Part shown: piece after piece, positions 3,293 to 21,492 of the stretch
Position numbering within the stretch: the first letter of the stretch is position 1
Layout of the letters: every line of letters starts with the position of its first letter
Sequence record: MH383160
From: Escherichia phage UB
Strand: one strand, 5' to 3'
DNA length: 64,000 nucleotides
The notes under the pieces: generated by a model
Databases searched by the model: none
Seen by the model: the letters and a program-made list of their open reading frames with translations, nothing else
Told to the model about the DNA's origin: nothing
Position numbers and translations under genes: made by a program

Positions 3293-3298
3293 TAGTTT

Positions 3299-4817: not shown

Positions 4818-4820
4818 TAC

Positions 4821-5255: not shown

Positions 5256-5262
5256 ATCTTTT

Positions 5263-5847: not shown

Positions 5848-5878
5848 TGCATGTTCTCCTTGAGTTAATGAAACTATC

Positions 5879-6121: not shown

Positions 6122-6178
6122 TTTGTTTTCCCCGTGTTGGTATGTACATATAGTACTAAAACATTTGAGTACTGTCAA

Positions 6179-6397: not shown

Positions 6398-6450
6398 TTT
6401 GTTTCTCCCGTGTTGGTATAGATATATAATACTAAAACATTTGAGTACTG

Positions 6451-6705
6451 TCAACGTGATATTAGTTTTATTTTCTTATTATACTGTTGATGCTCATAAA
6501 GGTTTATCTTTCCAGTATTCTCAATTACTATTCTGTTGTTGGTGTCCACGTCGATTACACGTAGTTTCCCGTTGCTTAACTTCCTAGGCAATAGGTTACC
6601 ATTAATAAACTCATTAGCAAGCTGTACGGCCTTTGTGATGATTCTCTGAGGTGCTTTATAGTGTACCCGTAAGATGTTATCTTTATATAGTTGAACCTTA
6701 ATCAT
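6451..6705 (-). CDS. hypothetical protein (84 aa)
   Basis: ORF; SD-like AGGACAAAC upstream. Confidence 0.5.
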   Translation of the reverse strand: MIKVQLYKDNILRVHYKAPQRIITKAVQLANEFINGNLLPRKLSNGKLRVIDVDTNNRIVIENTGKINLYEHQQYNKKIKLISR

Positions 6706-6716
6706 TTTGTTTGTCC

Positions 6717-6744
6717 TATAAAAAAGGCGGGAACTGATCCCGCC
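6717..6744 (-). terminator. Rho-independent terminator
   Basis: Minus strand GGCGGGAtcagTTCCCGCC followed by a T run, just 3' of gene 6767..7171. Confidence 0.6.
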
Positions 6745-6766
6745 GTGTTGTTAGTACTGCAAGTTA

Positions 6767-7171
6767 TTAGATAACCTGGCGGCGTTTACTGTATACTGTT
6801 ACACGATTACCCTTACGATCATGTCGGATCTCTTTCTGGTTGCGAATCAGTTCACTTGGACGCTTAAGGTTTGCCAGGTGATCCGCGTGAGTCCATGCGG
6901 TGTGGTTTACCTGTACTTTGATATCAGAATCAGCGATAAACTCATCTTGTGCATCAAGTATTGACGCCAGTAAATCCGCTCGTTTTAGTTCTGCTGCTGT
7001 TAGTACTGGCTCCGGTGAATTCACAATATCAGAGATCTCTTTGAACTGTACGGCCCAGCGTTGACCTTTCGGTGCATCTTTGCCCATGTCTTTAAATGTT
7101 TCGCCTTCCTCGCGTGCAACAATACGGGCAGCTTCACGGGTAGCGTAAAATTTAGTAATCATGGTATACAT
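6767..7171 (-). CDS. hypothetical protein, paralog of 18477..18743
   Basis: Shares YFATRE.AR..AR..G.TFKDMG..RWAV and C-terminal HDRKGNRVTVYS with 18477..18743. Confidence 0.55.
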   Translation of the reverse strand: MYTMITKFYATREAARIVAREEGETFKDMGKDAPKGQRWAVQFKEISDIVNSPEPVLTAAELKRADLLASILDAQDEFIADSDIKVQVNHTAWTHADHLANLKRPSELIRNQKEIRHDRKGNRVTVYSKRRQVI

Positions 7172-7257
7172 CCTATTAGTTAAGTTAGTACTACAAGTTA
7201 GAGTCTATTATAAAGTACTATCTGGGCAATGTCAAATAGTACTTTAAATGGATTCTA

Positions 7258-7581
7258 TTACATGTCTTTCTTACGTTTTACATCGTGGTAGCGAACTGTT
7301 ATTTCTTTGTTGATCTCTTCCTCGATGCGGTGAATAACTTTTTCTTTCGGGTTGAAACCTATAACGGTTTCTTTAATGATCTCCAAGCCCGTGTATTCGC
7401 CTTGTGTACCGTAACCGTATGTAAAGGTTTCGTGTCCCAGGTCTTCCCAGCGGTCGCCAATTAACGCAGACACGTAGCAAGAGTGGTAAGTATTGCCGTG
7501 TGAATCAGTCCACCGATTAACATTAATGTCAAAGGAGGTTACAATTTTCAGTTCCACTTTCTGGGCAAGGATCATAGCCAT
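7258..7581 (-). CDS. hypothetical protein (107 aa)
   Basis: Start moved to MAMILAQ; the track start lies in the 5'-UTR hairpin. Confidence 0.5.
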   Translation of the reverse strand: MAMILAQKVELKIVTSFDINVNRWTDSHGNTYHSCYVSALIGDRWEDLGHETFTYGYGTQGEYTGLEIIKETVIGFNPKEKVIHRIEEEINKEITVRYHDVKRKKDM

Positions 7582-7669
7582 TTTTATTTCTCTCTCTTTG
7601 TTAGGAGGGGAACCGTTTCCCCTCACTTGATGTAAACTATTATACAGTACTAAGATACTTTGTCAATAC

Positions 7670-7852
7670 TTATTTTTTGGAAAGTTTACGCATTAATTCT
7701 ACGCTTTCTTGTGAACGTTTTGCTACCTGGCAAGCTGTATGGGTAGTAAACATTTTTGTATAGTCTGACGCTTTGCCACCGAACCGAGCGGCACGTTCAC
7801 GGGCACTTGGAACTAATACTATTTCTTTCTTGCAGATAGTGCACTTAGCCAT
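7670..7852 (-). CDS. hypothetical small basic protein (60 aa)
   Basis: ORF; promoter plus hairpin cassette upstream, near-identical to that of the neighbouring gene. Confidence 0.5.
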   Translation of the reverse strand: MAKCTICKKEIVLVPSARERAARFGGKASDYTKMFTTHTACQVAKRSQESVELMRKLSKK

Positions 7853-7939
7853 TTTTATTTCTCTCTTTTAGTTAGGAGGGGAACCATTCCCCTCGCTTGA
7901 TGTAAACTATTATACAGTACTAAGATACTTTGTCAATAC

Positions 7940-8215
7940 TTAATTATTGTAAATGTCGTGAATAGTGATAAAGTTTTTACGACCGTAAACCTGCAAATCA
8001 GTATCAATAAAGTGCTTATCTAGTACATCCTCGACGCTTAACGCGGTGTCGTGGATATCTTCGTAGAATTGAGGATCTACAATCTTGCTTAAGTCATCCG
8101 GCGTTAACTTATCATTTAACCATTGAACCGCCTGGATATCTGCTTCACGTTTCCAGTCTTCCAGGTTAGTAGTCAGTACTTGCTCGATTTCGTTAGCTGT
8201 CAGTAGAATCCGCAT
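7940..8215 (-). CDS. hypothetical acidic protein (91 aa)
   Basis: ORF; promoter cassette upstream. Confidence 0.5.
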   Translation of the reverse strand: MRILLTANEIEQVLTTNLEDWKREADIQAVQWLNDKLTPDDLSKIVDPQFYEDIHDTALSVEDVLDKHFIDTDLQVYGRKNFITIHDIYNN

Positions 8216-8438
8216 TTTTATGTTTCCTTATCAGTGGTTGATGTAAGTATTATACTCTTTTACTTTCTATTGTCAAACTATTTTATCAGGGGAGGTTTTC
8301 TTATGTCTTACTCCTGGACTACTTAACGGGGTTACTTGTTTCGTTCCCCGTCCTGATGTAAAACATTATACTTGATTCTAAGTACAATGCAAGTACTTTT
8401 TAAAAATAGTTTTCAGTACTAGCCACCAGCATATAATA

Positions 8439-8521
8439 GATACATTTATGCACCCGGTGGGCTGAATTGTTTCTATGCGTATATAATAGCAAAGGGACTG
8501 ACCGGAGTCAATCCCTTTTTC
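8439..8521 (-). repeat. About 85-bp intergenic repeat, copy 3
   Basis: Direct comparison with 2915..2997. Confidence 0.6.
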
Positions 8522-8955
8522 AAATATTTTTAAACTTCTTTCGGGTTGCGATATGTGATAGCGTTCGGGTACATTTGTTTAATGTTATTCCATGCCTGGT
8601 TAACATTGTAACCACTTGAGCGAATCAGTTGGTTACTACCGACACCTTGAAACACTACTTCGAATAAGAATTCTTTCATGCTTTCACCTCGCGATCTGCT
8701 TTACCTTTACGCCAGGACATTACTAATTGTTCGCGTTGCCATAAGTCGAGTGATACAAAAAGTTTTGCGGTATCACTTTTAGGATACTCTCCAGTAGTAC
8801 CTAACCGATAAAACAGATCTTTCAGTACTGATAATTCTACTTGAATCATTTTATTACTCCTGATTGCGTTAATACTTCTACAATTGCATGAATGATCATA
8901 AGTACAGCTAAAACAATAATCATCGGATTCATTTGCATAAGCTGTACTCCTTCTA

Positions 8956-9168
8956 TTAATCTTTCAGCCAATGATCTTGAATGAATTTTTCACAGAATCC
9001 CTGTTTCATGGATTCTAACAGGCGTTCGCGGTGAGCGGCGGCATATTGCTCAGTACTATGCGTTACGCCAGGCTGATAACGTGATACCCCATCCGGTCCG
9101 ATGTATTGTACATCCCACGGTTTTTCGTTAGTATCAGACCATTTACGAACGATTAGTTGACCTTGCAT
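8956..9168 (-). CDS. hypothetical protein (70 aa)
   Basis: ORF; promoter plus hairpin cassette and AGAGGAAAG SD upstream. Confidence 0.55.
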   Translation of the reverse strand: MQGQLIVRKWSDTNEKPWDVQYIGPDGVSRYQPGVTHSTEQYAAAHRERLLESMKQGFCEKFIQDHWLKD

Positions 9169-9251
9169 TTTTCTTTCCTCTCAGTGGGGAGAATCATTTC
9201 TCCCCTTCATGTAAACTATTATACAGTACTGGGTTGCATTGTCAATAGTTT

Positions 9252-9575
9252 TTATTCACCTTGTTTGAATTTAGTTTTCTGCATTGATTCCATGATTGCA
9301 ACCAATACGCCGTGGATCTCGCTTAACGCGGAATCACTAAAAGCATTAATGAATAGTCGATCATTCTCGCGAATATTTTTAATGTACTTTTCAGCAGTAG
9401 TTGCGAATTCATTCAACGGTAGATCAAATGCTTTATCCCATGATGGATGGCGTAATTGTAACAGTACTGGATTATCACGATCACCAGGGGAAAACGTACC
9501 AGTGATGAAACATACGCCCGGAATACTTTCGAACTGGCAACGGACTTCCTTTGTGATAGTAGTATGAATGTACAT
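9252..9575 (-). CDS. hypothetical protein (107 aa)
   Basis: ORF; GAGGATAA SD upstream; co-transcribed with 9603..9791. Confidence 0.5.
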   Translation of the reverse strand: MYIHTTITKEVRCQFESIPGVCFITGTFSPGDRDNPVLLQLRHPSWDKAFDLPLNEFATTAEKYIKNIRENDRLFINAFSDSALSEIHGVLVAIMESMQKTKFKQGE

Positions 9576-9602
9576 TTATTGTTATCCTCTATTAAATTAA
9601 TA

Positions 9603-9791
9603 TTACAGTTTATGAATCAATTCTTTATCTAAGCGATAGCGTACATTATTAATAGTAACGGCATTGTTTTTAATGCTACGCTGTACAGGTCCACCAGCAA
9701 TAACAAATGTTGCTTTATTGCCCCGAACAATGATAGCACTTCCAGGATTACCGAAATCATCTTGTACTAAAATACTTGATAAGTTTTCCAT
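9603..9791 (-). CDS. hypothetical protein (62 aa)
   Basis: ORF; promoter plus hairpin cassette upstream. Confidence 0.5.
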   Translation of the reverse strand: MENLSSILVQDDFGNPGSAIIVRGNKATFVIAGGPVQRSIKNNAVTINNVRYRLDKELIHKL

Positions 9792-11077: not shown

Positions 11078-11688
11078 TGTTAAACGTCCTGTAACGCATT
11101 CTAACGAGATAAACGGTTGAGTACTGGCATTGTATAGGGTAATGAATTAAAGCCCACCAGCGTTAACCAGTGGGCTATAATCTTACATCTTGCGGATAAT
11201 CTTAACAGTATCTTTCACCGATTTACCGTCTTGCTGACATTGCTCGATCATTGCGTATTGTTCTGCGGTCAGATCCTCGCCAGTTTTTGCCAGTACTGCG
11301 TCGATGAATGAATCCAGTGCGATCATTTTGTTTCTCTCTTAGGTTAAGTTAACTACTGTTGATAAAACTTATTATACAGTACTATCAAACTATGTCAATA
11401 ACTTTAATAGTACTGGTAATATATTTTAGCGGTAGTCGTCGTATGCTTTATTCACCTGGCGAATGTAACTTTCAAAGGCTTCGTCTACCGTTTCATACTC
11501 CCGAACATAATCACCATAGGAAACTACATACATACCTTTTTGATCTTCAAACGTCATGATGATAGAATCCAGACCAACGATTTCAGTTTTTGCGATGATA
11601 GCCATTTTTTAATTCCTTAGTAGTGTAGTTGATAAAACTTATTATGCCAGTACTATCAAACTATGTCAATAGCACTGTGATAATATTT

Positions 11689-11901
11689 TTAGTTAATAAT
11701 AGTCAGTGTAAAATTGTAATCCCCTGCCTGGTATAGTACTTTATCGCCGAACGTGCCGACACGTTTCATATTGCAATAGATACCCATAACACTTTTTACA
11801 TCTTTGATATTCCGAACGCCTGTAATATCTTTATTAAAATAATCGTGGTCAGAAAATAAAACTTGTTTTGCATTTTTCAGTACAGTGCGGATATTAGCCA
11901 T
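11689..11901 (-). CDS. hypothetical protein (70 aa)
   Basis: ORF; promoter plus hairpin cassette upstream. Confidence 0.5.
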   Translation of the reverse strand: MANIRTVLKNAKQVLFSDHDYFNKDITGVRNIKDVKSVMGIYCNMKRVGTFGDKVLYQAGDYNFTLTIIN

Positions 11902-11994
11902 TTTGTTTTCTCTCTGTTAGTGGGGAGAACTATTCTCCCCTTGATGTAAACTATTATACAGTACTATAATCTATTGTCAAACTATTTTTTTATA

Positions 11995-12336
11995 TTATTC
12001 GAAATCTTCTGGACCGGACTGATAATCATCTTCACCGTATGCACTTTCTAACCGCTCACCAGTGTAATCATCAGTTAAGCTATCATCCTCATAGTTCACG
12101 TCTACGCCTGTGATGTAAAACTGGCTATCGTCTGGATCATTGAAATTAATTTTTTGGATGTTTACAATAACTGTATTGATGCCCAGGACACCGCCATCAG
12201 CCGTTACAAAGTACTGATAGTTTTCACAACCGCCTGAATTGAAACCGTAATTAATTTCGGCCCGACCATCATTTAAACGCAGTGCCTGGGCAATGATTTC
12301 ATTTTCAAAGTTAGATTGAGCAATTGAGATAGTCAT
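11995..12336 (-). CDS. hypothetical acidic protein (113 aa)
   Basis: ORF; promoter plus hairpin cassette and AAGGAAAC SD upstream. Confidence 0.55.
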   Translation of the reverse strand: MTISIAQSNFENEIIAQALRLNDGRAEINYGFNSGGCENYQYFVTADGGVLGINTVIVNIQKINFNDPDDSQFYITGVDVNYEDDSLTDDYTGERLESAYGEDDYQSGPEDFE

Positions 12337-12460
12337 GATTCGTTTCCTTATTACCAGGGGAAACCGTTTCCCCTTGCGATGTAAAACATTATACGCTTAT
12401 TGAGATAGTTTGCAAGTACTTTTTAAAAATAGTTTTCAGTACTCAAACATTATACAATAG

Positions 12461-12546
12461 ATACACTCCTGCACCCTGTGGGCTAGTGAGCTATCTCTCA
12501 ATGAATATATAATAGCAAACTGGCTGACCGAAGTCAACCACTTTTT
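12461..12546 (-). repeat. About 85-bp intergenic repeat, copy 4 (hairpin variant GGCTGACCGAAGTCAACC)
   Basis: Direct comparison; the hairpin resembles the type found in the 44-59 kb region. Confidence 0.55.
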
Positions 12547-12769
12547 CATTTATTTTTAGCTTTTAGAATCGCCGCCTTTCGCGTCATGCCTTGCTTGATG
12601 TACTCATTTACTTTCGCTTTTTTAGCGTTTACCTTGTCTGCTTTCGTTTTAGGAGTACTGTAAATTATACCGTTAGGATTCATTTAAATCACCATAAAGA
12701 ATAGATAGGTTACTAACAATGCCGCGATCATTGCACCGACCAGGGCCGAACTGTAATAAGCTAATGATT

Positions 12770-12922
12770 TCATTTTTTAGCCTGAAAATAATGTTTAATT
12801 TGAGCGGCGGTCAGTGCACAATTACGCAGGAAGTTTTCTGTATAACTGCGTCGAGTACTGAAAGAAAATTGACCTTTACCGTTCCCGATAGTAACATCAA
12901 ACCGAGCATTATATTGTTTCAT
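12770..12922 (-). CDS. hypothetical small protein (50 aa)
   Basis: Start moved to MKQYNARF (GGAGA SD); the track's first Met is encoded by the hairpin loop. Confidence 0.45.
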   Translation of the reverse strand: MKQYNARFDVTIGNGKGQFSFSTRRSYTENFLRNCALTAAQIKHYFQAKK

Positions 12923-13219
12923 TTTGTTTCTCCTGTTCTTGGGGAGAATCATTTCTCCCCTTCATGTAAACTATTATACAGTACTAAAAACTAATTGCAA
13001 GTATTATTTTTTAGATTTACGTAAACTTTCTACCATCTCAGGAGTAAGCCCCAGCGGGTAGGAAACCACTTCATCCACAAAACGCAAAGGGAATACCCCA
13101 TCTAAAGTTGAACGTGCTTTCTTATTAGTACTCTTTTTTGATGCTTTCATTTCATATTCCTTAATTAGTGGGGAGAACTATTTCTCCACTTCATGTAAAC
13201 TATTATACAGTACTAAAAA

Positions 13220-13429
13220 CTAATTGCAAGTATTATTTTCTAAAAAATGTTTGTATGCTGAATCAACCACTCTTTCGATAACATACGCTAACGGCACGTA
13301 TCCAACTACATGACTACAATAAAAAGGACTACGATTAGAATCATCGTATGCAAATACTTTTTCAGGATCTGCATCAATCACATACATATTAACCTTTAAG
13401 ATGTCGATCTTATCCTGTACAGTAAGCAT
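13220..13429 (-). CDS. hypothetical protein (69 aa)
   Basis: ORF; co-transcribed with 13435..13707. Confidence 0.5.
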   Translation of the reverse strand: MLTVQDKIDILKVNMYVIDADPEKVFAYDDSNRSPFYCSHVVGYVPLAYVIERVVDSAYKHFLENNTCN

Positions 13430-13434
13430 ATTAA

Positions 13435-13707
13435 TTAACCTTTTAAGTACTGGCTTAAGTAGTCTTTTTGATCTTCGGTGATTGCAGTCATCTTCCCTAG
13501 TACTGGGTTGATGATATAATCCCCTGTAACGTCCTGTGACGCATTCTCAGGGTGTTTAACGGCTGGGGTAGCCATAGCCATTGCCTGGACTTGTTCGACG
13601 CTGTAACGCTCATAAAGGCGGCATTCTTCCGGTGTTAACATAGCATCAGTACGCTTCATCGGTTTAATGATGCTTTCGATCTCATTCAGTACTTGATTAA
13701 CGTTCAT
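13435..13707 (-). CDS. hypothetical protein (90 aa)
   Basis: ORF immediately downstream of 13759..14028. Confidence 0.5.
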   Translation of the reverse strand: MNVNQVLNEIESIIKPMKRTDAMLTPEECRLYERYSVEQVQAMAMATPAVKHPENASQDVTGDYIINPVLGKMTAITEDQKDYLSQYLKG

Positions 13708-13758
13708 GGTATAATCCCCAATATAAGCGGCCTAAAACGACCGCTAACGATGTTTTGA

Positions 13759-14028
13759 TTAATAGGTGTAAGGTTGACGCTCAAACAATGATTGCACGTT
13801 GTACGCCCCGCTAATGGGCTTTGCTGGCAAATCGATTTTATATTGTTCACGCTTAAAGATAATAAAACGGCAATTGTTTTTAACATCAAAATTGATTGAA
13901 CGTTCCAGGAGTTTTCCATCGTGCACAAATACAAGATAACCGCTTGGTACTTGTTTTGTAGTACTGGTTGCAACCATAGACCGACGAACATGAGTACCTG
14001 CATCGATTAAAGTACTGATATTTTTCAT
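13759..14028 (-). CDS. hypothetical protein (89 aa)
   Basis: AGGAAA SD and promoter upstream; preferred over the overlapping frame 13704..14003, which has neither. Confidence 0.5.
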   Translation of the reverse strand: MKNISTLIDAGTHVRRSMVATSTTKQVPSGYLVFVHDGKLLERSINFDVKNNCRFIIFKREQYKIDLPAKPISGAYNVQSLFERQPYTY

Positions 14029-14336
14029 TTTAGTTTCCTTAGTTGTCTTGATAAAATCTATTATGCCAGTACTATCAAACTATGTCAATAGTACTGTGAT
14101 AATATTTTTACTTACTTTTTGCTTTCTTAATTGCTTCCACCTGGTCGGCCCATTCTTTACCCCATACTTGTAAATTATAATGGTACTGGCAAAGAGCAAC
14201 GCCCCGCTTTAAACCAGTAATAGATTTTTTACCACATTGACAAGTTTTCATATTAGTTTCCTTGTAGTGGGGAGAATCATTTCTCCCCTTGATGTAATGT
14301 ATTATACTTTATTCGATTTACTTTGCAAGTACTTTT

Positions 14337-14564
14337 TTAATTTAATTCATCCAGGCAAAGGATACGCTCAACGCCCAAATCAGTTAAACTAATGGTCGGC
14401 ACTTGATAGGTTTCAATGTATGCTACAGTTGCCCACTGACCGAACTCATTAACGGCCCAGGTATTCATTGCATTTTGCAATTCCGCACCTGCCTTGTTAG
14501 TAATGACTGCAACTACTTGTTCGTTGCCAGTAGTACCAGATACGCGAGTAATGATAATAGCCAT
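14337..14564 (-). CDS. hypothetical protein (75 aa)
   Basis: Start moved to MAIIITRVSG, downstream of the 5'-UTR hairpin. Confidence 0.5.
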   Translation of the reverse strand: MAIIITRVSGTTGNEQVVAVITNKAGAELQNAMNTWAVNEFGQWATVAYIETYQVPTISLTDLGVERILCLDELN

Positions 14565-14801
14565 TGTTTTGATTCCTTTGATTTGGAAGGAGAACCGTTT
14601 TCCCCTCTCGATGTAAAACATTATACGCTAATCTATTAATCATGCAAGTACTTTTTATTACTTTTTGCAAAATACTTTAAACGCTCTCAATCGCATTCTA
14701 ACGACCTTAACGCCACCAGCTAGGGCGATGTATCAGATAATCAGTTTAATGCGTTAGAATCGATTATAGGCGGTGCTAGTGGACTGGAATACTATAGACA
14801 C

Positions 14802-14828
14802 AAAAAAGCCCACTGTTTAAGGTGGGCT
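14802..14828 (-). terminator. Rho-independent terminator
   Basis: Minus strand AGCCCACCttaaacaGTGGGCT plus TTTTTTG, 3' of 14850..15332; an identical hairpin sits at 15536..15564. Confidence 0.6.
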
Positions 14829-14849
14829 ATTGATTCAGTACTTTAATTG

Positions 14850-15332
14850 TTATGCTTCAACTTTGCGATGAGCTTCGATCCATTCCTCGCGAGTCATACC
14901 GCTTTCTTTGATAGCGTCCAGTACTACCGCAATGCAGTTACCGCGTACAGGAATCAAATGTTCTTCACCGTTATCAAGTACTACAGTAACACGTTCTTGA
15001 ATCCATTTTTTAGGTTTAGATTCTGGCTTATCTTCACCATACTTAACCGCCAGGGCTTTATGTGCCATTTCTACAACTACTTCCAGATCCAATCCAGACA
15101 CTGCCGCCTGGATACTGTCAATTGTTGCTTGCAGTTCGGCTTCACGGGCTTTTTTCTGTTCTTCCAGTTCTGCTACCTTTTTGGCTTGTAATTCTTTCGC
15201 TTCACTGTACGCAATGTTAAAATTGTTGCGTACTGCTTTCATGGTATCGTTATCCAGGTCAGCCAGCAATTCAGCAGCAATAACAGTATCGTTTGAAATC
15301 AGTGCTTTCAGGAATGATTTTACATTAGCCAT
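14850..15332 (-). CDS. hypothetical coiled-coil protein (160 aa)
   Basis: Start at MANVKSF; Ala/Glu/Lys-rich helical middle; hairpin terminator downstream at 14802..14828. Confidence 0.55.
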   Translation of the reverse strand: MANVKSFLKALISNDTVIAAELLADLDNDTMKAVRNNFNIAYSEAKELQAKKVAELEEQKKAREAELQATIDSIQAAVSGLDLEVVVEMAHKALAVKYGEDKPESKPKKWIQERVTVVLDNGEEHLIPVRGNCIAVVLDAIKESGMTREEWIEAHRKVEA

Positions 15333-15535
15333 TTTATAAATCCTCAATTAAAGTTTAGTTTACGTTTATTAGTGTATCAAAGTTTTTTTGACGTGTCCAG
15401 TTTTTCGTTCGACTTACTGGCGGTCTACTTAGTGCTCCCCGTCTTGATGTAATACATTCTACGCCTTTTTGCGGTATTGTCAACTACTTTTTTAAAACTA
15501 TTTTCAAAGTATCTCAGTACTACAATACTACAAAA

Positions 15536-15564
15536 ATAAAAAAGCCCACTGTTTAAGGTGGGCT
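15536..15564 (-). terminator. Rho-independent terminator
   Basis: Same hairpin as 14802..14828, followed by a T run on the minus strand, 3' of 15582..15881. Confidence 0.6.
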
Positions 15565-15581
15565 AGTGATTCAGTACTATA

Positions 15582-15881
15582 TTATAAACAGTTAATTACT
15601 CCGGTGTGCGTTACTTTCTCAGTATCCATAACCGTGACCGATCCACGCTTAGTACTTGCATCATAATAAATTGTTGTGCTACCGTTTTCGTCTTCTTCAT
15701 GGAACGGGCCGTTTTTAAATGCTTCTGGTTGGATCTCTAAATCCTTTAAAACAATCTCGCCCGTACTTTCATTGGTCATCGCAACAGTGCACTGAATGAA
15801 TTTTTCACTACTCACATCTAACGACGCATTAACAGCGAAAGAGGAAACAGATAAAGCCAGGGCGATGATTGCAATTTTCAT
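15582..15881 (-). CDS. putative secreted protein with signal peptide (99 aa)
   Basis: N-terminus MKIAIIALALSVSSFAVNA is a typical Sec signal peptide; terminator downstream. Confidence 0.55.
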   Translation of the reverse strand: MKIAIIALALSVSSFAVNASLDVSSEKFIQCTVAMTNESTGEIVLKDLEIQPEAFKNGPFHEEDENGSTTIYYDASTKRGSVTVMDTEKVTHTGVINCL

Positions 15882-15965
15882 TTGATTATCCTTAGTTACT
15901 AGGGGGAACCTCTCCCCCGTGCTATGTAAAATATTATACAGTACTAAAAACTAATTGCAAGTACT

Positions 15966-16202
15966 TTATGATTTTTTATAAAACATTTCGGCAGTGATAT
16001 TTTTACCCGTTGGTTGTACTTTATCCAGAATTTTTTGATGCCCAGGCCGTCCAAATGAATATGATCCGTAAACCGTAAACCAGTAGTTACCCTCAGTGTT
16101 TACATGTACAGCACAATAGGGAACGCCCCGCGATTCATCACTAGTAAAGTGTGCTACCGTTCCCGTTACATTCGAAGTCGTTGATTTGATTTGTTCAAGC
16201 AT
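15966..16202 (-). CDS. hypothetical protein (78 aa)
   Basis: ORF; promoter plus hairpin cassette upstream. Confidence 0.5.
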   Translation of the reverse strand: MLEQIKSTTSNVTGTVAHFTSDESRGVPYCAVHVNTEGNYWFTVYGSYSFGRPGHQKILDKVQPTGKNITAEMFYKKS

Positions 16203-16445
16203 TTTCTTATTCCTTAGTTACCAGGGGAACCGCTCCCCCTATGCAAAACATTATACGCGTTTAAAAACTAATAGCAAGTATTTTAATAAAAAGTATTTGA
16301 AAAATAATTGTTGACAACTGCATCCAGTACTGGCATAATACTTATATAAAGACGATACAGTCACTAACCCACAGGGTGCCGAGATCCGTCTATTAAATGA
16401 TTCAGTACTGAAAAAGTAACGGGGAGTTATTATCTCCCCGCGTTG

Positions 16446-16667
16446 TTATTTGGTAAGGTATAAACAGAAGTCACCTTTATTTGCTACGCCGCCAGTGTAA
16501 CGCGATGAATAGTTAGAAATATCTTGTACTTCTGCTATTACCAGTGTATCATCATTCATTTCGTCGCAGAAGCAAACGGCTGGATCTTTAACGCCGATAT
16601 TGTCGGCATGTTCCCGCATAGATTTAACCAGTGCTTCCAGTTGAGAAAGAGTAGTGATATTAGCCAT
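16446..16667 (-). CDS. hypothetical protein (73 aa)
   Basis: Start moved to MANITTL, downstream of the hairpin. Confidence 0.5.
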   Translation of the reverse strand: MANITTLSQLEALVKSMREHADNIGVKDPAVCFCDEMNDDTLVIAEVQDISNYSSRYTGGVANKGDFCLYLTK

Positions 16668-16752
16668 TGTATTTTCCTCATTACCAGGGAGAACCATTTC
16701 TCCCCTCTATGTAAAACATTATACAGTACTAAAAACTAATTGCAAGTACTTT

Positions 16753-16941
16753 TTAATTAAATTCCATAAAATCATTCTCAACGTGCACAACAATCTGATT
16801 ATTTTTAAAGTCCGCAGAAAACTCAATACAATCATATACTGCTTTTTCTGTTACCATACTATGAGTACCAATCGGATTAATAGGGGATTGAATTGTTTCA
16901 ATCTCGTTACCTTGTTCATTAACAATTAAAATATTAAACAT
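16753..16941 (-). CDS. hypothetical protein (62 aa)
   Basis: ORF; GGAGTAAAAG SD and TATAAT-containing promoter upstream. Confidence 0.5.
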   Translation of the reverse strand: MFNILIVNEQGNEIETIQSPINPIGTHSMVTEKAVYDCIEFSADFKNNQIVVHVENDFMEFN

Positions 16942-16996
16942 AACTTTTACTCCTGATAGTGTTTACCTGATATAAAGTATTATACGCCTTTATTGC

Positions 16997-17203
16997 TTAG
17001 TGTCCAGTACTTTTTAAAACATAATCAAAGACACTTCTCACATCATTGATCATCGCCTGGCGGTTAGCAGGTAAAGCATCAGGATCACCACTATCCCAAG
17101 CCTGTATGAAGCCTCCAAGCTCTGAATAAACTTTATTACGCAATCCGATTAACTGTAATTCTTTTTCTTCAAGCTCTTTGATACGTTCAATTAAATCACT
17201 CAT
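16997..17203 (-). CDS. hypothetical protein (68 aa)
   Basis: Start moved to MSDLIERIKEL with AAGGA SD. Confidence 0.45.
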   Translation of the reverse strand: MSDLIERIKELEEKELQLIGLRNKVYSELGGFIQAWDSGDPDALPANRQAMINDVRSVFDYVLKSTGH

Positions 17204-17220
17204 TAGATAATCCTTAGTAC

Positions 17221-17508
17221 TTAACTGTAAGATCCGCAACGGTCGCAGTAGTGCCCGTCTTCCTCGTCATCGTCAACGAATTGCCCGACGAAATGATCTA
17301 CTTTCGCTTTCAGGTTATTATAATCGTTTTCTACTTCCTTTAATCGTTCCTGGTAGTATTCCAGTGCCTCAAGATACGCCGCCTCAGCAGTTTTTGCACG
17401 CATAGCTAAATTCATGCCACGCGATTCATCATAAAGCCAATAACCATCAGTGCACTGGCTAATAGATAATGACTTGCTTAATACTGTATAGCTAATTACT
17501 TTGCTCAT
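17221..17508 (-). CDS. hypothetical protein with C-terminal CxxC (95 aa)
   Basis: Start moved to MSKVISY with GAGGAA SD; C-terminal HYCDRCGSYS. Confidence 0.5.
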   Translation of the reverse strand: MSKVISYTVLSKSLSISQCTDGYWLYDESRGMNLAMRAKTAEAAYLEALEYYQERLKEVENDYNNLKAKVDHFVGQFVDDDEEDGHYCDRCGSYS

Positions 17509-17563
17509 TAGATATTCCTCAGTAAAGGCGGGAACCATTCCCCGCCATTATCTCAGTACTAAA

Positions 17564-18175
17564 TTAATATGCGATTGATTCTACTACGCCATCAATAACA
17601 TTGAATTGATACTCGTTACCCTCGATCAGTGCCGTGATGTTCTCAGTAGTGAATTGATCCTCATATGCATTCTCTAAATCACGGTACAACTTGCGGGATA
17701 ATTCACGAATAGTTTCAGTGAGTAGTTCCTCAAGCTCATTAACTAACGTTTCTTGTTTTGCGGTTAAATCAGTGTAAGCCGATTCAATGTACCCGCTTAC
17801 AGTATTCTCATGCGAGTAGTGGGAGTGAGAACGCTTTACACTCATCGGCAAATCATCTTCATTCAGCAGGTGACGGATTGAGCGATACTTAGTTAATGCT
17901 CTTACCTTGCGTAAAAACTTCACTGCGTCAACGTGGTCAGTACTGATTGATGCACCGTCACCTTGCGACCAAAAACCACTGAATCGTAAATCTGCGTCAT
18001 TAATGCCATATTCCGGTAGTACTGTTTCTTTATAGTATTCAATTTCACTTTCAGAAAAATAATCATCGTTTAAGTTTTTTTCACGTTCCCGAACCAGTTC
18101 GATAGCTGACGTTTGTTGTTCTGCGTTCAATTCAGAAAAAGCCATAACATAAGTAGTAGTAGTGATAGTTTTCAT
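17564..18175 (-). CDS. hypothetical acidic protein (203 aa)
   Basis: ORF; promoter upstream; strongly acidic. Confidence 0.55.
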   Translation of the reverse strand: MKTITTTTYVMAFSELNAEQQTSAIELVREREKNLNDDYFSESEIEYYKETVLPEYGINDADLRFSGFWSQGDGASISTDHVDAVKFLRKVRALTKYRSIRHLLNEDDLPMSVKRSHSHYSHENTVSGYIESAYTDLTAKQETLVNELEELLTETIRELSRKLYRDLENAYEDQFTTENITALIEGNEYQFNVIDGVVESIAY

Positions 18176-18476
18176 TTTGTAACCCTCATTCAGTAGTTGA
18201 TGTAAGTATTATACGCTTTTAAAAACAATTGTCAAACTATTTTATCAGGGGAGTTTTTCGTGTGCCTTACTCCTGGGCTACTTAACGGGGAGTTACTTAT
18301 TTCGTCCCCCGTCCTGATGTAAAACATTATACGCCTTTAAACATAGTTTGCAAGTACTTTTTGAAAAATAGTTTTTAATCACTTTTATATAGATACACTC
18401 CCGCACCCTATGGGCTATCGCCTTGTGTCCGGCTTGTAAGTATTATCTCACTAAGCCGGATAATGGTCAAGTACTT

Positions 18477-18743
18477 TTATTCAAGTACTGCTATCTTTTT
18501 AGTACTGTACACAGTAACACGGTTGCCCTTGCGGTCGTGCTTTATTTCTACCACTCGACGCGATACACTATCAGGACTTTTTAACGCCGATAACCAGTAC
18601 TGTAAGGATCTGGCTGTACTTTGCTTTACTACCGCCCAACGTTTACCACGTTCCGATTGCACGCCCATATCTTTAAACGTTGCCCCGTCCTGGCGAGCGG
18701 CGATCCGAGCTTGTTCACGCGTTGCAAAGTATATAATATTCAT
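18477..18743 (-). CDS. hypothetical protein, paralog of 6767..7171 (88 aa)
   Basis: Start moved to MNIIYFATREQ; shares FATRE..AR and HDRKGNRVTVYS with 6767..7171. Confidence 0.5.
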   Translation of the reverse strand: MNIIYFATREQARIAARQDGATFKDMGVQSERGKRWAVVKQSTARSLQYWLSALKSPDSVSRRVVEIKHDRKGNRVTVYSTKKIAVLE

Positions 18744-18825
18744 GCTGTTATCCCATCGTTGATGTATGAATAAAATCCTATTATAAAGTACTATCACCGT
18801 GCAATAGTACTTTAAATAAATTCTA

Positions 18826-19065
18826 TTACATTCCAACCATTGCAGCACGGATCGCCGTAGTGCTATATTTGAATCCGTCCGGCGTTTTATCTTGTCCAGT
18901 CTGTTCTAAAAATAGCATCATATGACGGGCCGCATCATTGCGATTAGTGTTAGCGGCAATAAAGTCCTGGGCCAACCGGTATAATGATTCATCGTTATTA
19001 ATCCAAAGGCTTACATTCCATTGAGTTTTGTTAGCGTGACCTAAGAACATTTTTGATTTAGCCAT
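18826..19065 (-). CDS. hypothetical protein (79 aa)
   Basis: ORF; promoter plus hairpin cassette upstream. Confidence 0.5.
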   Translation of the reverse strand: MAKSKMFLGHANKTQWNVSLWINNDESLYRLAQDFIAANTNRNDAARHMMLFLEQTGQDKTPDGFKYSTTAIRAAMVGM

Positions 19066-19163
19066 TTTTAAATCCTCGTTTGATTTGAGGCGGGAATAGT
19101 TCCCGCTCTCGATGTAAAGTATTATACGCTATTTGTTAGTACTGTCAAACTACTTTTTAAAAC

Positions 19164-19526
19164 TTATTCGTAAATCTTGCCACTGTCAGCCCATACCAGG
19201 AAACGAGGCATATTATCCCATGCATCTTGTTTTAAATTTAAACCGTGTAATACTTCTGTACTTTCCATTCCTGGTACTGGTTTACTATACACCGCGAACA
19301 ATTCACCCATATACTGATAAGCCATCGTTAAATCACTTGCGATCATCTTATGGATCATCGCATCAAGCATCACGGTAGCGGCGTATTGTTCACGCTTAAG
19401 CGGTAACATTGCAATAAGTTCCCGATAAGCTGAAATGTGAATTTTTACCGTTTCTGCCGGAAGATCTTTCATCTCGTCGCGGAAGTTAACCAGGTTAGCA
19501 ATAATTTTATTGATTTGAGTAGCCAT
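19164..19526 (-). CDS. hypothetical protein (120 aa)
   Basis: Start moved to MATQINKII, downstream of the hairpin. Confidence 0.5.
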   Translation of the reverse strand: MATQINKIIANLVNFRDEMKDLPAETVKIHISAYRELIAMLPLKREQYAATVMLDAMIHKMIASDLTMAYQYMGELFAVYSKPVPGMESTEVLHGLNLKQDAWDNMPRFLVWADSGKIYE

Positions 19527-20299
19527 CGTTTTAATCTCTCTTAAAGTGTAGCGGGAAGTGTTCCCGCTCTCGATGTAAAACATTCTACACCTTTCCCAAT
19601 ACTTTGCAAGTACTTTCTACAAATACTTTTAAAATAGTTTTCTTTCTATATAGGAGTACTATCATTCAGTACTGCTACACTAGAATCAATCAACCAAATC
19701 ACTACTATACCCCATAAAACGGCCTCAGACGCATTCTAACGCATTAATACACCTAAGCTATACATTTGCACCGCCACCAGCTAACCAGGGCTTTACGATG
19801 CGTTTAAACGCGTTAAATTATTTTCAATTATTTTGTTTTTTGCTATTGACTCAGTACTAAAAAAGCGTATAATTACTACATAGACGCGAGAAAGCGGATA
19901 TCCCAAGGGGTGCGGAATTGTGCCCAAAATTCAAGATATAAAAAAAAGGATACACTCCCGCACCCTAGCAGGTCAAAGCACTTTCTCAGTACTGAATCAT
20001 AGTACCATAGTACGCCCCAGGATGGCAAGCAAATTAATTAAAACTTTTTTCATCCAGGGTATTGCTTTATTTTTCCAGTACTGTATAATAGTTTCATCAA
20101 GTCGAGAAAGACTATAGCCCACCGGGTGCATAGTTACGCCCAAAATTTCAGTACTAGATTATTTTTTAAAAATATTCATCCAGGCGGTTGACATTGCCCC
20201 CAGTTTATTAGATAATGATTCCAGATTCAGAAAAATCTAACTCCAGATACTGCGGGGAAACTATCCCCACGCGGTAGGGGAACTATTGGAAAAAAACAA

Positions 20300-20470: not shown

Positions 20471-21492
20471 ATCCATCCAGGGTAACTACGCCCAAAATCC
20501 GTCAGTACTATACCATAGATCTATCTTTTGAAAGGGAGTATTCAGTACTGCCACAATAGCCCTCACTGTTACTGTAGGAGGATGAAGACTATCATGTAGT
20601 ACTGAATACTGTTAGAGGGAACCCACCAGCTTGTGCTGGTGGCATAATGCTTTAGATTAAAATCAGTACTAATACCATTCTGTTAATATCAGTACTGTTA
20701 TTACGATTTTCATATGAGGTTCAAAAAGATGTACCACCACAGGAGGAACTATCTTTTCTGTACTGTCTCACGACAGGAGGTAGAGTAAATGAATTGTTCG
20801 CAGCAACTCATCTCTCTATGTAGAACATTATACAGTACTGAATCATAATGTCAATAGCTTTCTTTCATTATTCAGTACTGATATTCTTGAGAACTACCCG
20901 ACTACAAACATCATTATATCCCACAAATCATAAACGTCCCAACGTAAATTTCAACTTTCGAAGATCCAACTTTTATTTCATAGGTACTCCAAAATTTTTA
21001 GGATCGAGATTTAGGATGGAGTACTAACCAACTTTTTGCTGGAGCCTCAAGGGGTAATGGAATTTTACCCCGAAGGGTAAAGGGGTAATTGAAATTAAGG
21101 TGAAAGTAATAATTCAGTACTAATCATTGCGTGATTACTTTTGATTACATTTGATGTAATTTGAAAAATGGAAAAGGAGCTTGGAAACTACAAAGTACGG
21201 CAGACTTCCTCTGCCTACTTAGTGGCATATTAGTACTGAATCATTCACACACATTTCCGTGCATTCTTGAGCAATCTTGTCTATACTAATCAGTACTGAA
21301 TCATATATAATCATTCTGTGATTCTACGGTGCTCATATAAATGTTTATATATGATTACTTATGACTACCTATGATTACGGGGTTTAGCCTGGGGAGAATC
21401 CTAGTGATCGCATTTGTCCAGGCTGAATTTTAACAATTCGCCTGTACATAAAGGTTGTTCACTAGGAGCTTCCCCTGTCTACTTGTGTTTAA

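What the first reader, a model, noticed from the sequence alone, without database searches (positions are those of the whole stretch)
11090..19800. Three copies of a roughly 70-bp element CGCATTCTAACG...GCCACCAGC
Copies at about 11095-11175, 14695-14770 and 19730-19800 share ACGCATTCTAACG and GCCACCAGC(T/G)(A/T)A(A/C)CCAG. In the 14.7-kb copy the element is closed by the inverted complement GCGTTAGAAT about 45 nt away, giving a potential 70-nt stem-bounded RNA. It is not a canonical tRNA (no T-loop consensus). Possibly a small structured RNA or a recombination site.
Basis: seen in the sequence. Interest (0 to 1): 0.45.

Follow-up and report, generated by a model that had tools for sequence, protein, structure and literature searches.

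The report
Chi sites beside a widespread mobile-DNA motif
The "70-bp repeat" is two separate things lying side by side in a jumbo coliphage's terminal repeat: ordinary Chi recombination hotspots, and a short conserved DNA motif of unknown function that also sits in phage T5's injection-stop region and in hundreds of other phages and plasmids.

Summary
The window comes from an Asteriusvirus (PBECO4/121Q-type jumbo coliphage). Positions ~230-21,219 correspond to its ~21-kb direct terminal repeat, with genes on the minus strand.

- **Observation.** It is real but mis-described. CGCATTCTAACG occurs exactly three times (0.15 expected). The shared unit is only ~27 nt, CGTTAGAATGCG-N4-AG-N2-CGTTT(T/A)A on the gene strand, not a uniform 70-bp element.
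- **Second block.** GCCACCAGC is the complement of Chi (GCTGGTGG). It lies at variable distance from the first block. The window has 14 Chi sites against 0.5 expected; nine co-oriented sites in the repeat, mostly intergenic, face the right genome end.
- **Proposed RNA.** It is not supported: no covariation, broken pairs in relatives, no Rfam or tRNA hit.
- **First block.** It belongs to a widespread non-coding module with core TTAGAATGCG…AG.GCGTTTTA. It occurs once per terminal repeat in T5-like phages, inside the annotated injection stop signal. It also occurs in about 640 phage records and about 1,900 plasmid records, both Gram-negative and Gram-positive, and in the four enterobacterial plasmids examined it lies next to replication genes or origins.
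- **Mechanism.** Function is unknown. My best inference is a duplex-DNA recognition site built of 10-bp-phased units.

The papers I could search do not name it.

The parts
11080..11106 (-). Motif copy 1, long form: CGTTAGAATGCGTTACAGGACGTTTAA. Its 3' part supplies AGGA just before the ATG of ORF 10880-11077.
   Evidence: (D11); conserved in 6 relatives.
14677..14703 (-). Motif copy 2, long form: CGTTAGAATGCGATTGAGAGCGTTTAA.
   Evidence: In EJP2, homology to the other Asteriusviruses begins at Chi plus this motif.
19705..19772 (-). Motif copy 3 (core 19715-19741) inside a ~65-nt near-invariant non-coding island, ~1.5 kb from the physical left genome end.
   Evidence: The 12-mer is invariant in 7 of 7 Asteriusviruses. 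The island is flanked by indel-rich DNA. Left end mapped.
13717..13749 (-). Short-form copy, CGTTAGCGGTCGTTTTAGGCCGCTTATATTGGG. It is 33/36 identical to T5 (AY543070) 6257-6290, in T5 'Repeat Region 2'.
13525..13551 (-). Degenerate copy (CCTGAGAATGCGTCACAGGACGTTACA) inside ORF 13435-13707.
   Evidence: (D11).
14750..14761 (+). Inverted partial copy (GCGTTAGAATCG).
   Evidence: (I19). Pairing is not conserved.
11154..11161 (-). Chi (GCTGGTGG) inside the terminator hairpin 11151-11176 that follows ORF 11183-11326.
14713..14720 (-). Chi, 9 nt upstream of motif copy 2. It is conserved in all 8 Asteriusviruses aligned.
19774..19781 (-). Chi, 32 nt upstream of motif copy 3. It is present in this phage and 121Q but absent in six relatives.
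2871..9698 (-). Five further co-oriented Chi sites in the terminal repeat (2871, 3093, 4672, 8423, 9691).
20623..20642 (.). Back-to-back Chi pair, CCACCAGC-ttgt-GCTGGTGG, ~0.58 kb from the left genome end. The + strand member is the only Chi in the repeat that faces that end.
14807..14828 (-). Intrinsic terminator of the gene upstream of copy 2.
14620..14647 (-). Canonical sigma-70-type promoter (TTGCAT-16-TATAAT) just downstream of copy 2.
   Evidence: Read from the sequence. It belongs to the same promoter family as those listed.
19582..19609 (-). Sigma-70-type promoter (TTGCAA-16-TAGAAT) of the first gene, ~100 nt downstream of copy 3.

Best explanation
The finding is a composite of two unrelated features. 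They lie next to each other in three intergenic regions of the ~21-kb direct terminal repeat of an Asteriusvirus jumbo coliphage.

**(1) The GCCACCAGC block is Chi.**
- On the gene strand it reads 5'-GCTGGTGG-3', the RecBCD hotspot.
- It is part of a strong enrichment. Nine co-oriented sites in the repeat, at least four of them outside any ORF, are positioned to be recognised by RecBCD entering at the right genome end. One oppositely oriented site lies 0.6 kb inside the left end.
- Inferred role: these sites blunt RecBCD degradation of the linear genome and promote RecA loading.

**(2) The CGCATTCTAACG block is the core of a conserved module.**
- On the gene strand it reads CGTTAGAATGCG-N4-AG-N2-CGTTT(T/A)A, about 27 nt.
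- It belongs to a very widespread, apparently unnamed family of non-coding modules on mobile DNA, with general core TTAGAATGCG-N4-AG-N-GCGTTTTA.
- The module reads as three or four units of about 10 bp (such as TTAGAATGCG, TTTGAGAGCG, TTTTAGAGC).

**Inferred mechanism.** The module acts as a primary-sequence site on duplex DNA, presenting repeated contacts on one face of the helix. The factor that reads it is not encoded nearby, so it is probably a host protein or a broadly conserved machine. The module sits where mobile DNA starts its programme:
- inside terminal repeats or first-entering DNA in T5-type phages and Asteriusviruses;
- beside rep genes or oriV in the enterobacterial plasmids examined.

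It is not a stem-bounded small RNA.
For: **Shown: context**
- The window is an Asteriusvirus.
- The region lies in the direct terminal repeat: OQ718158 annotates it as such, and fEgEco12 has a 20,993-bp repeat with confirmed termini (PMC13070987). Its position 1 maps to window 21,219.

**Shown: Chi**
- There are 14 sites against 0.53 expected, and no shuffle of 100 reached 14. Chi is the commonest of 168 same-composition 8-mers.
- The orientation switches at 20623/20635.
- Six of the ten sites in the repeat lie outside any ATG-started ORF of 45 aa or more.
- Relatives show the same orientation bias.

**Shown: the motif in Asteriusviruses and T5**
- The 12-mer occurs 3 times against 0.15 expected.
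- The whole 348-kb 121Q genome holds exactly three strict copies, and T5-likes hold one per terminal repeat.
- The T5 copy lies at AY587007 9271-9282, inside the annotated injection stop signal. It is 58 nt after a terminator and 48 nt before palindrome D.
- Copy 3 is a ~65-nt conserved island flanked by variable DNA.

**Shown: wider distribution**
- The motif occurs in unrelated phages (phiTE and others) that share no neighbouring proteins.
- All 30 metagenome loci checked are intergenic.
- A 50-nt consensus matches 643 phage records and 1,924 plasmid records. The plasmid hits include IncX1, IncX4 and small MOBQ/iteron plasmids, where it lies 0.3-1 kb from rep/oriV, and Gram-positive plasmids.
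- A scan of 185,579 bacterial species genomes found the strict form only in one T5-like contaminant contig.

**Shown: no structure**
- No conserved pairing was found.

**Inferred**
Against: - No trans-acting factor is identified. The DNA-level reading rests on negative evidence (absence of RNA covariation) and on context.
- Orientation is biased towards the downstream gene, roughly 3:1 in my rough tally. In three cases the motif sits 30-63 nt before a start codon (window copy 1, L206, L182). Both points would also fit a promoter or a 5'-leader role.
- In many non-Asteriusvirus copies AAAAC(C)GC and GCGTTTT can pair around a 7-nt loop TTAGAAT. A hairpin in single-stranded DNA or RNA therefore cannot be excluded for those lineages.
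- Copies 1 and 2 carry substitutions in some relatives, and each is missing in one. Not every copy need be functional.
- BLAST hits at E-values up to 10 include weak partial matches, so the record counts are upper estimates.
- For Chi, co-orientation with transcription could partly reflect coding bias at the three or four sites that lie inside ORFs.
Confidence: 0.4

Rival explanations
1. The motif is a promoter or promoter-proximal regulatory element for host RNA polymerase. In this reading TAGAAT is a -10 element, GCG a GC-rich discriminator and the conserved A/G the start site. Alternatively the motif occupies the -41 to -17 region upstream of a downstream TATAnT. It would launch early transcripts or origin-activating transcripts.
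For: - TAGAAT followed by GCG resembles a -10 element plus a discriminator.
- The motif is always intergenic, often just after terminators or in divergent intergenic regions, and is mostly co-oriented with the next gene.
- Window ORF 10880-11077 has no other recognisable promoter between the upstream terminator and its ATG.
- In L206 and L182 the gene starts 30-63 nt downstream.
- About one third of lineages have a TANNNT hexamer at a fixed offset of 25-30 nt.
- In the small MOBQ plasmids the motif points towards oriV/rep, about 0.5 kb away.
Against: - The consensus scan finds about 25 good sigma-70 promoters in the region but none at the motif. There is no -35 at 16-18 bp (inspection).
- The critical last T of TAGAAT is lost in several orthologues: TAGAAA in UE-S1, slurp01 and T5 Repeat Region 2, and TGTAAT in CMSTMSU. 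It is also lost in plasmid variants (TTACAGT, CTCACAGC).
- The most conserved part in plasmids is AGRGCGTTTTAGAG, which is not a hexamer pair.
- The motif is antisense to the flanking genes in phiTE, L059 and L195.
- In T5 there is no gene downstream.
Confidence: 0.22
2. The motif is part of a single-strand initiation signal (sso/ssi type). On displaced or transferred single-stranded DNA it folds and recruits RNA polymerase or primase to prime the complementary strand.
For: - The motif spans phyla but is restricted to mobile elements: rolling-circle, mobilizable and conjugative plasmids, plus phages.
- It lies beside origins.
- In the 1.9-kb Pediococcus rolling-circle plasmid it lies in the only long non-coding stretch. 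It sits next to a long hairpin and a weak hit to Rfam 'Bacillus-plasmid RNA'.
- Inverted partner copies lie 45-70 nt away in some lineages (window copy 2, L203).
Against: - No conserved hairpin or covariation is seen around the motif.
- Asteriusvirus and T5 copies lack the left arm.
- The ssoA signatures are absent from the window. RSB (TTATGCCGAGAAAATTT) is not found, and CS-6 (TAGCGT; sequences from PMC4598088) is not associated with any copy.
- Phage DNA enters as duplex.
- No Microviridae G4-type origin was hit.
Confidence: 0.13
3. The motif, with its adjacent Chi, is a recombination 'linker' or a miniature mobile cassette. Short conserved intergenic sequences of this kind let unrelated phages and plasmids exchange modules. 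It would persist because it spreads, not because it serves the host element.
For: - Homology breakpoints coincide with it. EJP2 diverges from the other Asteriusviruses immediately upstream of Chi plus copy 2.
- L050 shares only a 72-nt stretch with T5-likes.
- Copies are gained and lost among relatives.
- T5-likes and Asteriusviruses share two further short islands in their repeats.
- One degenerate copy is embedded in an ORF.
- Chi sits directly beside copies 1-3.
Against: - The motif sits at orthologous positions with an invariant core throughout T5-like phages and throughout Asteriusviruses (copy 3 in 7 of 7 genomes). This argues for purifying selection on a function.
- There are only 1-3 copies per genome.
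- No terminal inverted repeats, target duplications or associated transposase were seen.
Confidence: 0.12
4. One reading: a 60-80-nt stem-bounded small RNA (tRNA-like or T4-type sRNA) is encoded at each copy.
For: - A 15-pair stem with one bulge can be drawn at copy 2.
- TTAGAAT resembles a 7-nt T-loop or anticodon-type loop, and in many non-Asteriusvirus copies it is flanked by short complementary arms.
Against: - The stem exists only at copy 2.
- It shows 0 compensatory pairs, and 7 of 15 pairs are broken in relatives.
- Folding z-scores are unremarkable.
- There is no covariation in 64 instances.
- ARAGORN and Rfam are negative.
Confidence: 0.04

Closest known systems
Chi (crossover hotspot instigator, 5'-GCTGGTGG-3') and RecBCD of E. 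coli
   Same: The octamer is identical. It is strongly over-represented, and its orientation bias relates to the DNA ends. This is as expected for a linear genome that must survive RecBCD.
   Different: The sites are concentrated in the intergenic DNA of a phage terminal repeat. One lies in a terminator stem, and two form a back-to-back hairpin. Activity was not tested.
Phage T5 'injection stop signal' / untranslated Repeat Region 3 of the left terminal repeat (Davison, bioRxiv 10.1101/866236; annotations of AY543070 and AY587007)
   Same: The same 27-nt motif, including the CG-TTAGAATGCG sub-variant, lies in T5 at AY587007 9271-9282. It is inside the annotated iss, in a long terminal repeat full of small early genes, just after a terminator. 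Two other short islands are also shared between the T5 repeat and this repeat.
   Different: - The named T5 features are absent here: paired DnaA boxes, the IRC/IRD inverted repeats, the LexA-box-like palindrome D and the nick site.
- No shared proteins were found.
- Here there are 3-4 copies spread over 1.5-10 kb from the left end, not one copy at the inner edge of the repeat.
- The motif is not among the elements Davison names in his section 3.3. It also occurs in phages and plasmids not known to transfer DNA in two steps.
Plasmid single-strand origins / ssi signals (ssoA with RSB and CS-6)
   Same: Both are conserved, orientation-carrying, non-coding elements of mobile DNA found across Gram-positive and Gram-negative hosts, next to replication functions.
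   Different: RSB and CS-6 are absent. No conserved hairpin is present.
T4-type 'PeSL' promoter-early stem-loop cassettes (recalled from memory: Arbiol et al. 2010)
   Same: Both are short conserved intergenic cassettes in early-gene regions at mosaic junctions. The window's abundant promoter-plus-hairpin repeats (D1-D5) look like this kind.
   Different: The motif itself lacks a sigma-70 promoter and a stem-loop. It is shared far beyond one phage family, including plasmids.
pSC101-type par/ori-proximal region
   Same: In small MOBQ/iteron plasmids the motif occupies the traD-to-ori interval that holds par in pSC101. Neighbouring sequence is homologous to pSC101 4838-4910.
   Different: pSC101 has only a reversed half-motif, TAAAACGCCCTGA at 4691-4703. 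Gyrase binding is a recollection about par and was not tested here.

Membership tests
Chi / RecBCD hotspot | Exact octamer 5'-GCTGGTGG-3' | tested here: met
   Fourteen exact sites, including one next to each of the three copies.
Chi / RecBCD hotspot | Statistical over-representation and strand/orientation bias relative to DNA ends | tested here: met
   14 observed against 0.53 expected. Nine of ten sites in the repeat are on one strand, and the switch at 20623/20635 lies near the mapped left end at 21219. Relatives show the same bias.
Chi / RecBCD hotspot | Attenuates RecBCD nuclease and stimulates recombination in vivo | not testable with these tools
   Needs genetics or biochemistry. The host is taken to be E. 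coli from the hosts of close relatives.
   0 of 15 pairs are compensatory and 7 of 15 are broken in some genomes. There is no covariation in 64 instances.
   z = -0.7, -1.8, -1.6 and +0.4 for the three copies and both strands of copy 2.
   ARAGORN found 0 genes. Rfam found nothing at gathering score and only chance-level hits elsewhere.
   No expression data are available.
Sigma-70 promoter | -35 and -10 hexamers, 16-18 bp apart, with A2 and T6 of the -10 conserved | tested here: not met
   No site was called at any copy, while many canonical promoters were called nearby. T6 of TAGAAT is lost in several orthologues and plasmid variants.
T5 injection stop signal (iss) | Lies in the long terminal repeat / first-entering DNA, in untranslated sequence after early genes | tested here: met
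   The T5 copy is inside the annotated iss. The window copies lie inside the Asteriusvirus direct terminal repeat.
T5 injection stop signal (iss) | Paired DnaA boxes and IRC/IRD inverted repeats, palindromes and nick site | tested here: not met
   No DnaA box (TTATNCACA) and no LexA-type palindrome occurs in window 1-22000.
T5 injection stop signal (iss) | Halts DNA transfer until pre-early proteins A1/A2 act | not testable with these tools
   No A1/A2 homologues were detected by tblastx against the T5 repeat. Function needs experiment.
ssoA-type single-strand origin | RSB (TTATGCCGAGAAAATTT) and CS-6 (TAGCGT) in a long hairpin | tested here: not met
   No RSB is found with up to 4 mismatches in the window. 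CS-6 is absent from the flanks of the copies, except once inside a promoter at 14625. Reference sequences come from PMC4598088.
Integron attC-like site (considered for copy 2 only) | RYYYAAC ... GTTRRRY inverted core sites on a folded strand, next to cassettes and an integrase | tested here: inconclusive
   TTCTAAC ... GTTAGAA at 14696-14758 resembles the core sites apart from the outermost base. The pairing is not conserved, the other copies lack a partner, and no integrase was looked for. The attC consensus is recalled from memory.

The most novel reading that the evidence does not exclude
TTAGAATGCG...AG.GCGTTTTA(G) may be a previously unrecognised cis-acting signal of mobile DNA that works across phyla. 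A universal host machine (RNA polymerase, primase, gyrase or similar) would read it at the moment DNA enters a cell or starts to replicate. T5-type phages and Asteriusvirus jumbo phages share a special sub-variant plus two other short islands in their terminal repeats. This would mean the jumbo phage's 21-kb repeat is a T5-like 'first-entering DNA' control region, possibly with staged DNA entry.
Probability: 0.2. Interest if true: 0.85.

Novelty: new variant of a known kind. Interest (0 to 1): 0.55.

Why it matters
- **An unnamed, widespread motif.** A ~27-45-nt non-coding motif matches roughly 640 phage and 1,900 plasmid records, yet it has no Rfam family and its core strings occur in no relevant paper I could search. 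It is either an overlooked basic signal of mobile DNA or a very successful hitch-hiker. Both possibilities can be tested with one deletion in T5, in an Asteriusvirus or in an IncX plasmid.
- **A lead on T5's injection stop signal.** The motif lies inside T5's injection-stop region, whose mechanism is unresolved (PMC13250531). It links that region to jumbo-phage terminal repeats and to plasmid origin-proximal DNA.
- **A testable Chi prediction.** The Chi arrangement predicts how these 350-kb linear genomes cope with RecBCD: nine sites face the right end and one hairpin pair lies 0.6 kb from the left end.

Tried and rejected
- **tRNA or known RNA.** ARAGORN and Rfam (gathering and E-value modes) on the window, phage loci and plasmid loci gave nothing relevant.
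- **Hairpin RNA.** Rejected on folding and two covariation tests.
- **Host chromosomal site.** The strict-pattern scan of 185,579 species genomes returned one hit, a T5-like contaminant in a MAG.
- **Shared trans-factor encoded nearby.** tblastx of the repeat against the T5 repeat, and all-against-all blastp of neighbouring ORFs, found no shared proteins outside T5-likes. Downstream genes have no common Pfam family.
- **Homologous downstream genes.** The genes after the three copies are not homologous.
- **phiTE pseudo-ToxI.** The phiTE copy (~58.5 kb) is not the pseudo-ToxI locus, which is at 106,714-106,772 (PMC3475682).
- **LexA-box anchor scan.** A scan meant to sample T5-likes without bias was swamped by temperate phages and gave nothing useful.
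- **DnaA and LexA boxes in the window repeat.** None.
- **ssoA membership.** Not met.
- **pSC101 par.** Only a reversed half-motif is present.
- **Literature string searches.** No relevant paper.
- **Resemblances from memory, not pursued.** None fitted all the invariant positions:
  - DeoR operator half-site (TGTTAGAA);
  - SPO1 late -35 element (CGTTAGA);
  - T4 MotA box;
  - boxA;
  - inner ends of Tn3-family inverted repeats;
  - attC core sites;
  - the 5' end of the Cas9 repeat (GTTTTAGAGCTA).

Full report

Yes in part. CGCATTCTAACG occurs exactly at 11095, 14692 and 19730 on the + strand. With up to one mismatch there are 3 matches against 0.15 expected, and no shuffle reached 3.

The repeat finder extends the similarity to about 36 nt (family D11). 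The shared part is AAACGnnCTnnnnCGCATTCTAACG. GCCACCAGC-like words do lie next to each copy.

However, the spacing between the two blocks is about 47, 9 and 32 nt. The rest of the proposed 70 bp is not alike among the copies. Only the 14.7-kb copy has the inverted partner GCGTTAGAATCG.

Two further relatives were missed. One is a short form at 13717-13749. The other is a degenerate copy inside an ORF at 13525-13551.

**2. Context**

The window is an Asteriusvirus, a PBECO4/121Q-type jumbo coliphage of about 350 kb. Over 10.8-20.2 kb it is 90-94% identical to many such records.

All genes from about 1 to 24 kb are on the minus strand, so the element should be read on that strand.

The region is annotated as a direct terminal repeat in OQ718158. 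fEgEco12 has a 20,993-bp repeat with termini confirmed by PhageTerm and restriction mapping (PMC13070987). Its position 1 aligns to window 21,219. Measured from that left end:

| Copy | Distance from left end |
|---|---|
| Copy 3 | ~1.5 kb |
| Copy 2 | ~6.5 kb |
| Short form | ~7.5 kb |
| Copy 1 | ~10.1 kb |

The repeat is packed with small ORFs. Most are preceded by a near-consensus sigma-70 promoter and a 5'-UTR hairpin.

**3. The second block is Chi**

GCCACCAGC contains CCACCAGC, the complement of 5'-GCTGGTGG-3'.

- *Enrichment.* The window holds 14 exact Chi sites against 0.53 expected, and no shuffle of 100 reached 14. Chi is the most frequent of the 168 octamers with the same composition, whose mean count is 0.86.
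- *Orientation.* Nine sites between 2,871 and 20,630 are on the minus strand. One at 20,635 is on the plus strand. The pair at 20623-20642 forms a back-to-back hairpin about 0.58 kb from the left end.
- *Position.* Six of the ten sites in the repeat lie outside any ATG-started ORF of 45 aa or more. One of them sits in the terminator stem beside copy 1.
- *Relatives.* They show the same strand bias.

By established knowledge, RecBCD recognises Chi when it approaches from the 3' side. The nine co-oriented sites would therefore act on enzyme entering at the right genome end, through the right copy of the repeat; the first site lies about 2.6 kb in. The 20,635 site would act on enzyme entering at the left end. 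This orientation argument is an inference.

The Chi beside copy 3 is absent in six relatives. Those beside copies 1 and 2 are conserved. Chi and the first block are therefore neighbours, not one element.

**4. The first block**

On the gene strand the three copies read:

| Copy | Sequence |
|---|---|
| 1 | CGTTAGAATGCG TTAC AG GA CGTTTAA |
| 2 | CGTTAGAATGCG ATTG AG AG CGTTTAA |
| 3 | CGTTAGAATGCG TCTG AG GC CGTTTTA |

The whole 348-kb genome of 121Q has exactly these three strict copies.

Across seven Asteriusviruses:

- Copy 3 is invariant and sits in a ~65-nt conserved island flanked by indel-rich DNA.
- Copy 2 carries substitutions in four genomes.
- Copy 1 carries substitutions in two genomes and is absent from EJP2.
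- In EJP2, homology to the other genomes begins at Chi plus copy 2.

**5. The T5 connection**

A pattern scan of viral contigs hit only 121Q and T5-like phages, with one copy per terminal repeat.

In T5 the motif is at AY587007 9271-9282 on the strand of the rightward pre-early genes. It lies 58 nt after terminator/palindrome C and 48 nt before palindrome D. This is inside the feature annotated 'injection stop signal'.

Davison's analysis of this region (bioRxiv 10.1101/866236) does not list this sequence among its named repeats. His figure starts at 9330.

T5 also has a short form in the opposite orientation at AY543070 6289.

Two further short islands are shared between the two kinds of terminal repeat:

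- A 20/20 match, window 2796-2815 to T5 5020-5039. A collection scan found it only in T5-likes and 121Q.
- A 33/36 match, window 13717-13750 to T5 6257-6290.

No protein similarity was found. The window repeat has no DnaA boxes and no LexA-type palindromes.

**6. A much wider family**

- *Other phages.* Relaxing the first two bases found the core TTAGAATGCG-N4-AG-N2-CGTTT in unrelated phage contigs. These include Pectobacterium phage phiTE, where it is antisense to the flanking genes and is not the pseudo-ToxI locus. They also include distant T5-likes with two tandem copies. Neighbouring proteins are not shared.
- *Metagenomes.* A scan gave 30 loci, all intergenic. Some are on plasmid-like contigs, one with a Mob_Pre relaxase and one with a cadmium-resistance cassette.
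- *Plasmids.* A 50-nt consensus matched 1,924 plasmid records: Escherichia 991, Salmonella 285, Enterococcus 239, Klebsiella 119, Lactiplantibacillus 82 and Lactococcus 62.
- *Phage records.* The same consensus matched 643 phage records. They include T5-likes of many hosts and Erwinia and Xanthomonas jumbo phages, where it lies about 2.5 kb from the record start. Certrevirus, SPN3US-like, Ea21-4-like and FelixO1-like phages are also hit. Many of these matches are partial, so the counts are upper estimates.
- *Position in plasmids.*
  - In IncX1 and IncX4 plasmids it lies 0.7-1 kb upstream of the rep genes.
  - In small MOBQ/iteron plasmids it lies between the traD terminator and the DnaA box, AT-rich region, iterons and rep.
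  - In a 1.9-kb Pediococcus rolling-circle plasmid it is in the main non-coding stretch.
- *Bacterial chromosomes.* The strict form is absent from 185,579 species genomes, apart from one T5-like contaminant.
- *Conserved core.* In plasmids the most conserved part is AGRGCGTTTTAGAG. The TTAGAATGCG part varies (TTAAAATGCG, TTACAGTGCG).
- *Periodicity.* The module reads as tandem units of about 10 bp (and inspection).

**7. Tests of the RNA idea**

- The copy-2 stem has 0 compensatory pairs among 8 genomes. Seven of its 15 pairs are broken in some genomes.
- Folding z-scores are unremarkable.
- Arms around TTAGAAT show no covariation in 64 distinct instances.
- ARAGORN and Rfam are negative.
- Orientation relative to neighbouring genes is mostly, but not always, sense. 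T5 carries two copies in opposite orientations.

**8. Tests of other memberships**

- *Sigma-70 promoter.* The scan lists many canonical promoters but none at the motif. The last T of TAGAAT is not conserved in several orthologues. A TANNNT hexamer at a fixed distance downstream occurs in only about a third of lineages.
- *ssoA.* The RSB and CS-6 signatures are absent.
- *pSC101.* It has only a reversed half-motif beside its par/ori region.

**9. Most likely mechanism**

Chi is the secure part. Its sequence, enrichment and orientation are shown; its activity is inferred.

For the motif, I commit to a site read on duplex DNA as primary sequence. It presents 10-bp-phased repeated contacts to a factor that is not encoded nearby. 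It sits at the start of early or terminal-repeat regions in phages and beside origins in plasmids.

This rests on four things: strict sequence conservation without structural covariation, mobile-element-only distribution across phyla, context, and periodicity. It is an inference with modest confidence (0.4 for the composite statement).

The rivals, in order of my confidence:

| Rival | Confidence |
|---|---|
| Promoter or leader element | 0.22 |
| Single-strand initiation signal | 0.13 |
| Recombination linker or miniature mobile cassette | 0.12 |

**10. Novelty**

Chi is known. Its arrangement in a jumbo-phage terminal repeat is a new instance of a known kind.

The motif family could not be placed in any family I could test. 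Its core strings occur in no relevant paper in the searchable library. I cannot exclude that it has a name in the older plasmid literature. I rate it a new variant of a known kind, namely a conserved cis-acting site of mobile DNA, with moderate-to-high interest.

Noticed in passing
whole window, dense in 9000-21400: AGTACT occurs 275 times in 64 kb, against roughly 22 expected from base composition. It is built into the early promoters (AGTACTTGCAA-N16-TATAAT; CAGTACTGTATAAT). It also stands alone as TTCAGTACTGAA throughout the left-end leader.
   Followed up: partly
window 9173-20861 (repeat families D1-D5): About 15 near-consensus sigma-70 promoters lie on the minus strand. Many are followed by a 5'-UTR hairpin (GGGGAGAA-N4-TTCTCCCC) and an RBS. 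They form repeated promoter-plus-stem-loop cassettes between small early ORFs.
   Followed up: partly
window 20319-20470: An array with 8-bp periodicity, (G/A)ACGGCTA-like and iteron-like. It lies in the 1.6-kb non-coding leader between the physical left end (~21219) and the first gene.
   Followed up: no
window 2796-2815: CATTGCCGCCCTACGAGATA is 20/20 identical to T5 (AY543070) 5020-5039. A collection scan finds it only in T5-like phages and 121Q. On the minus strand it lies directly after a TTGACA-17-GATAAT promoter-like pair, so it is probably the start of that transcript. It ends in an ATG, which is the start of T5.009 in T5 and of a 12-codon mini-ORF here.
   Followed up: partly
L035/L038 (T5) 9330-9349 in AY587007 coordinates; also L201, L048, L052: T5 'palindrome D' (TACTGTATAAATATACAGTA) fits the LexA box pattern CTGT-N8-ACAG (consensus recalled from memory). 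LexA-type boxes also follow the motif in an unrelated metagenomic contig and, degenerate, in distant T5-likes.
   Followed up: partly
L038 (T5 AY543070) 8127 and 8689: The 10-kb T5 terminal repeat carries two co-oriented Chi sites on the + strand, facing the right genome end, and none in the other orientation.
   Followed up: no
L001 (fEgEco12) 7542 and 7604; also L039, L041: In some relatives the copy-2 locus has a second Chi on the opposite strand about 60 nt away. In this window that site is one mismatch off (GCTAGTGG).
   Followed up: no
window 31043-31563: Three + strand Chi sites fall in a glycine-rich coding stretch (GGTGGTGC and GGTGCTGG are also frequent). These are probably a by-product of the coding sequence rather than selected sites.
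   Followed up: no
L048 and L052 (distant T5-like contigs): Upstream of each motif copy is GAGATCTATTTGTTTT. By my recollection this resembles the oriC 13-mer consensus GATCTnTTnTTTT. L050 has TGAGAGATCTC at the same place.
   Followed up: no
L209 (Pediococcus plasmid pDM59) 848-942: A weak, sub-threshold Rfam hit to 'Bacillus-plasmid RNA' (23.5 bits against a gathering score of 31). It covers a long hairpin that contains an inverted copy of the AGGGCGTTTTAGAG half-motif, immediately next to the main motif copy.
   Followed up: no
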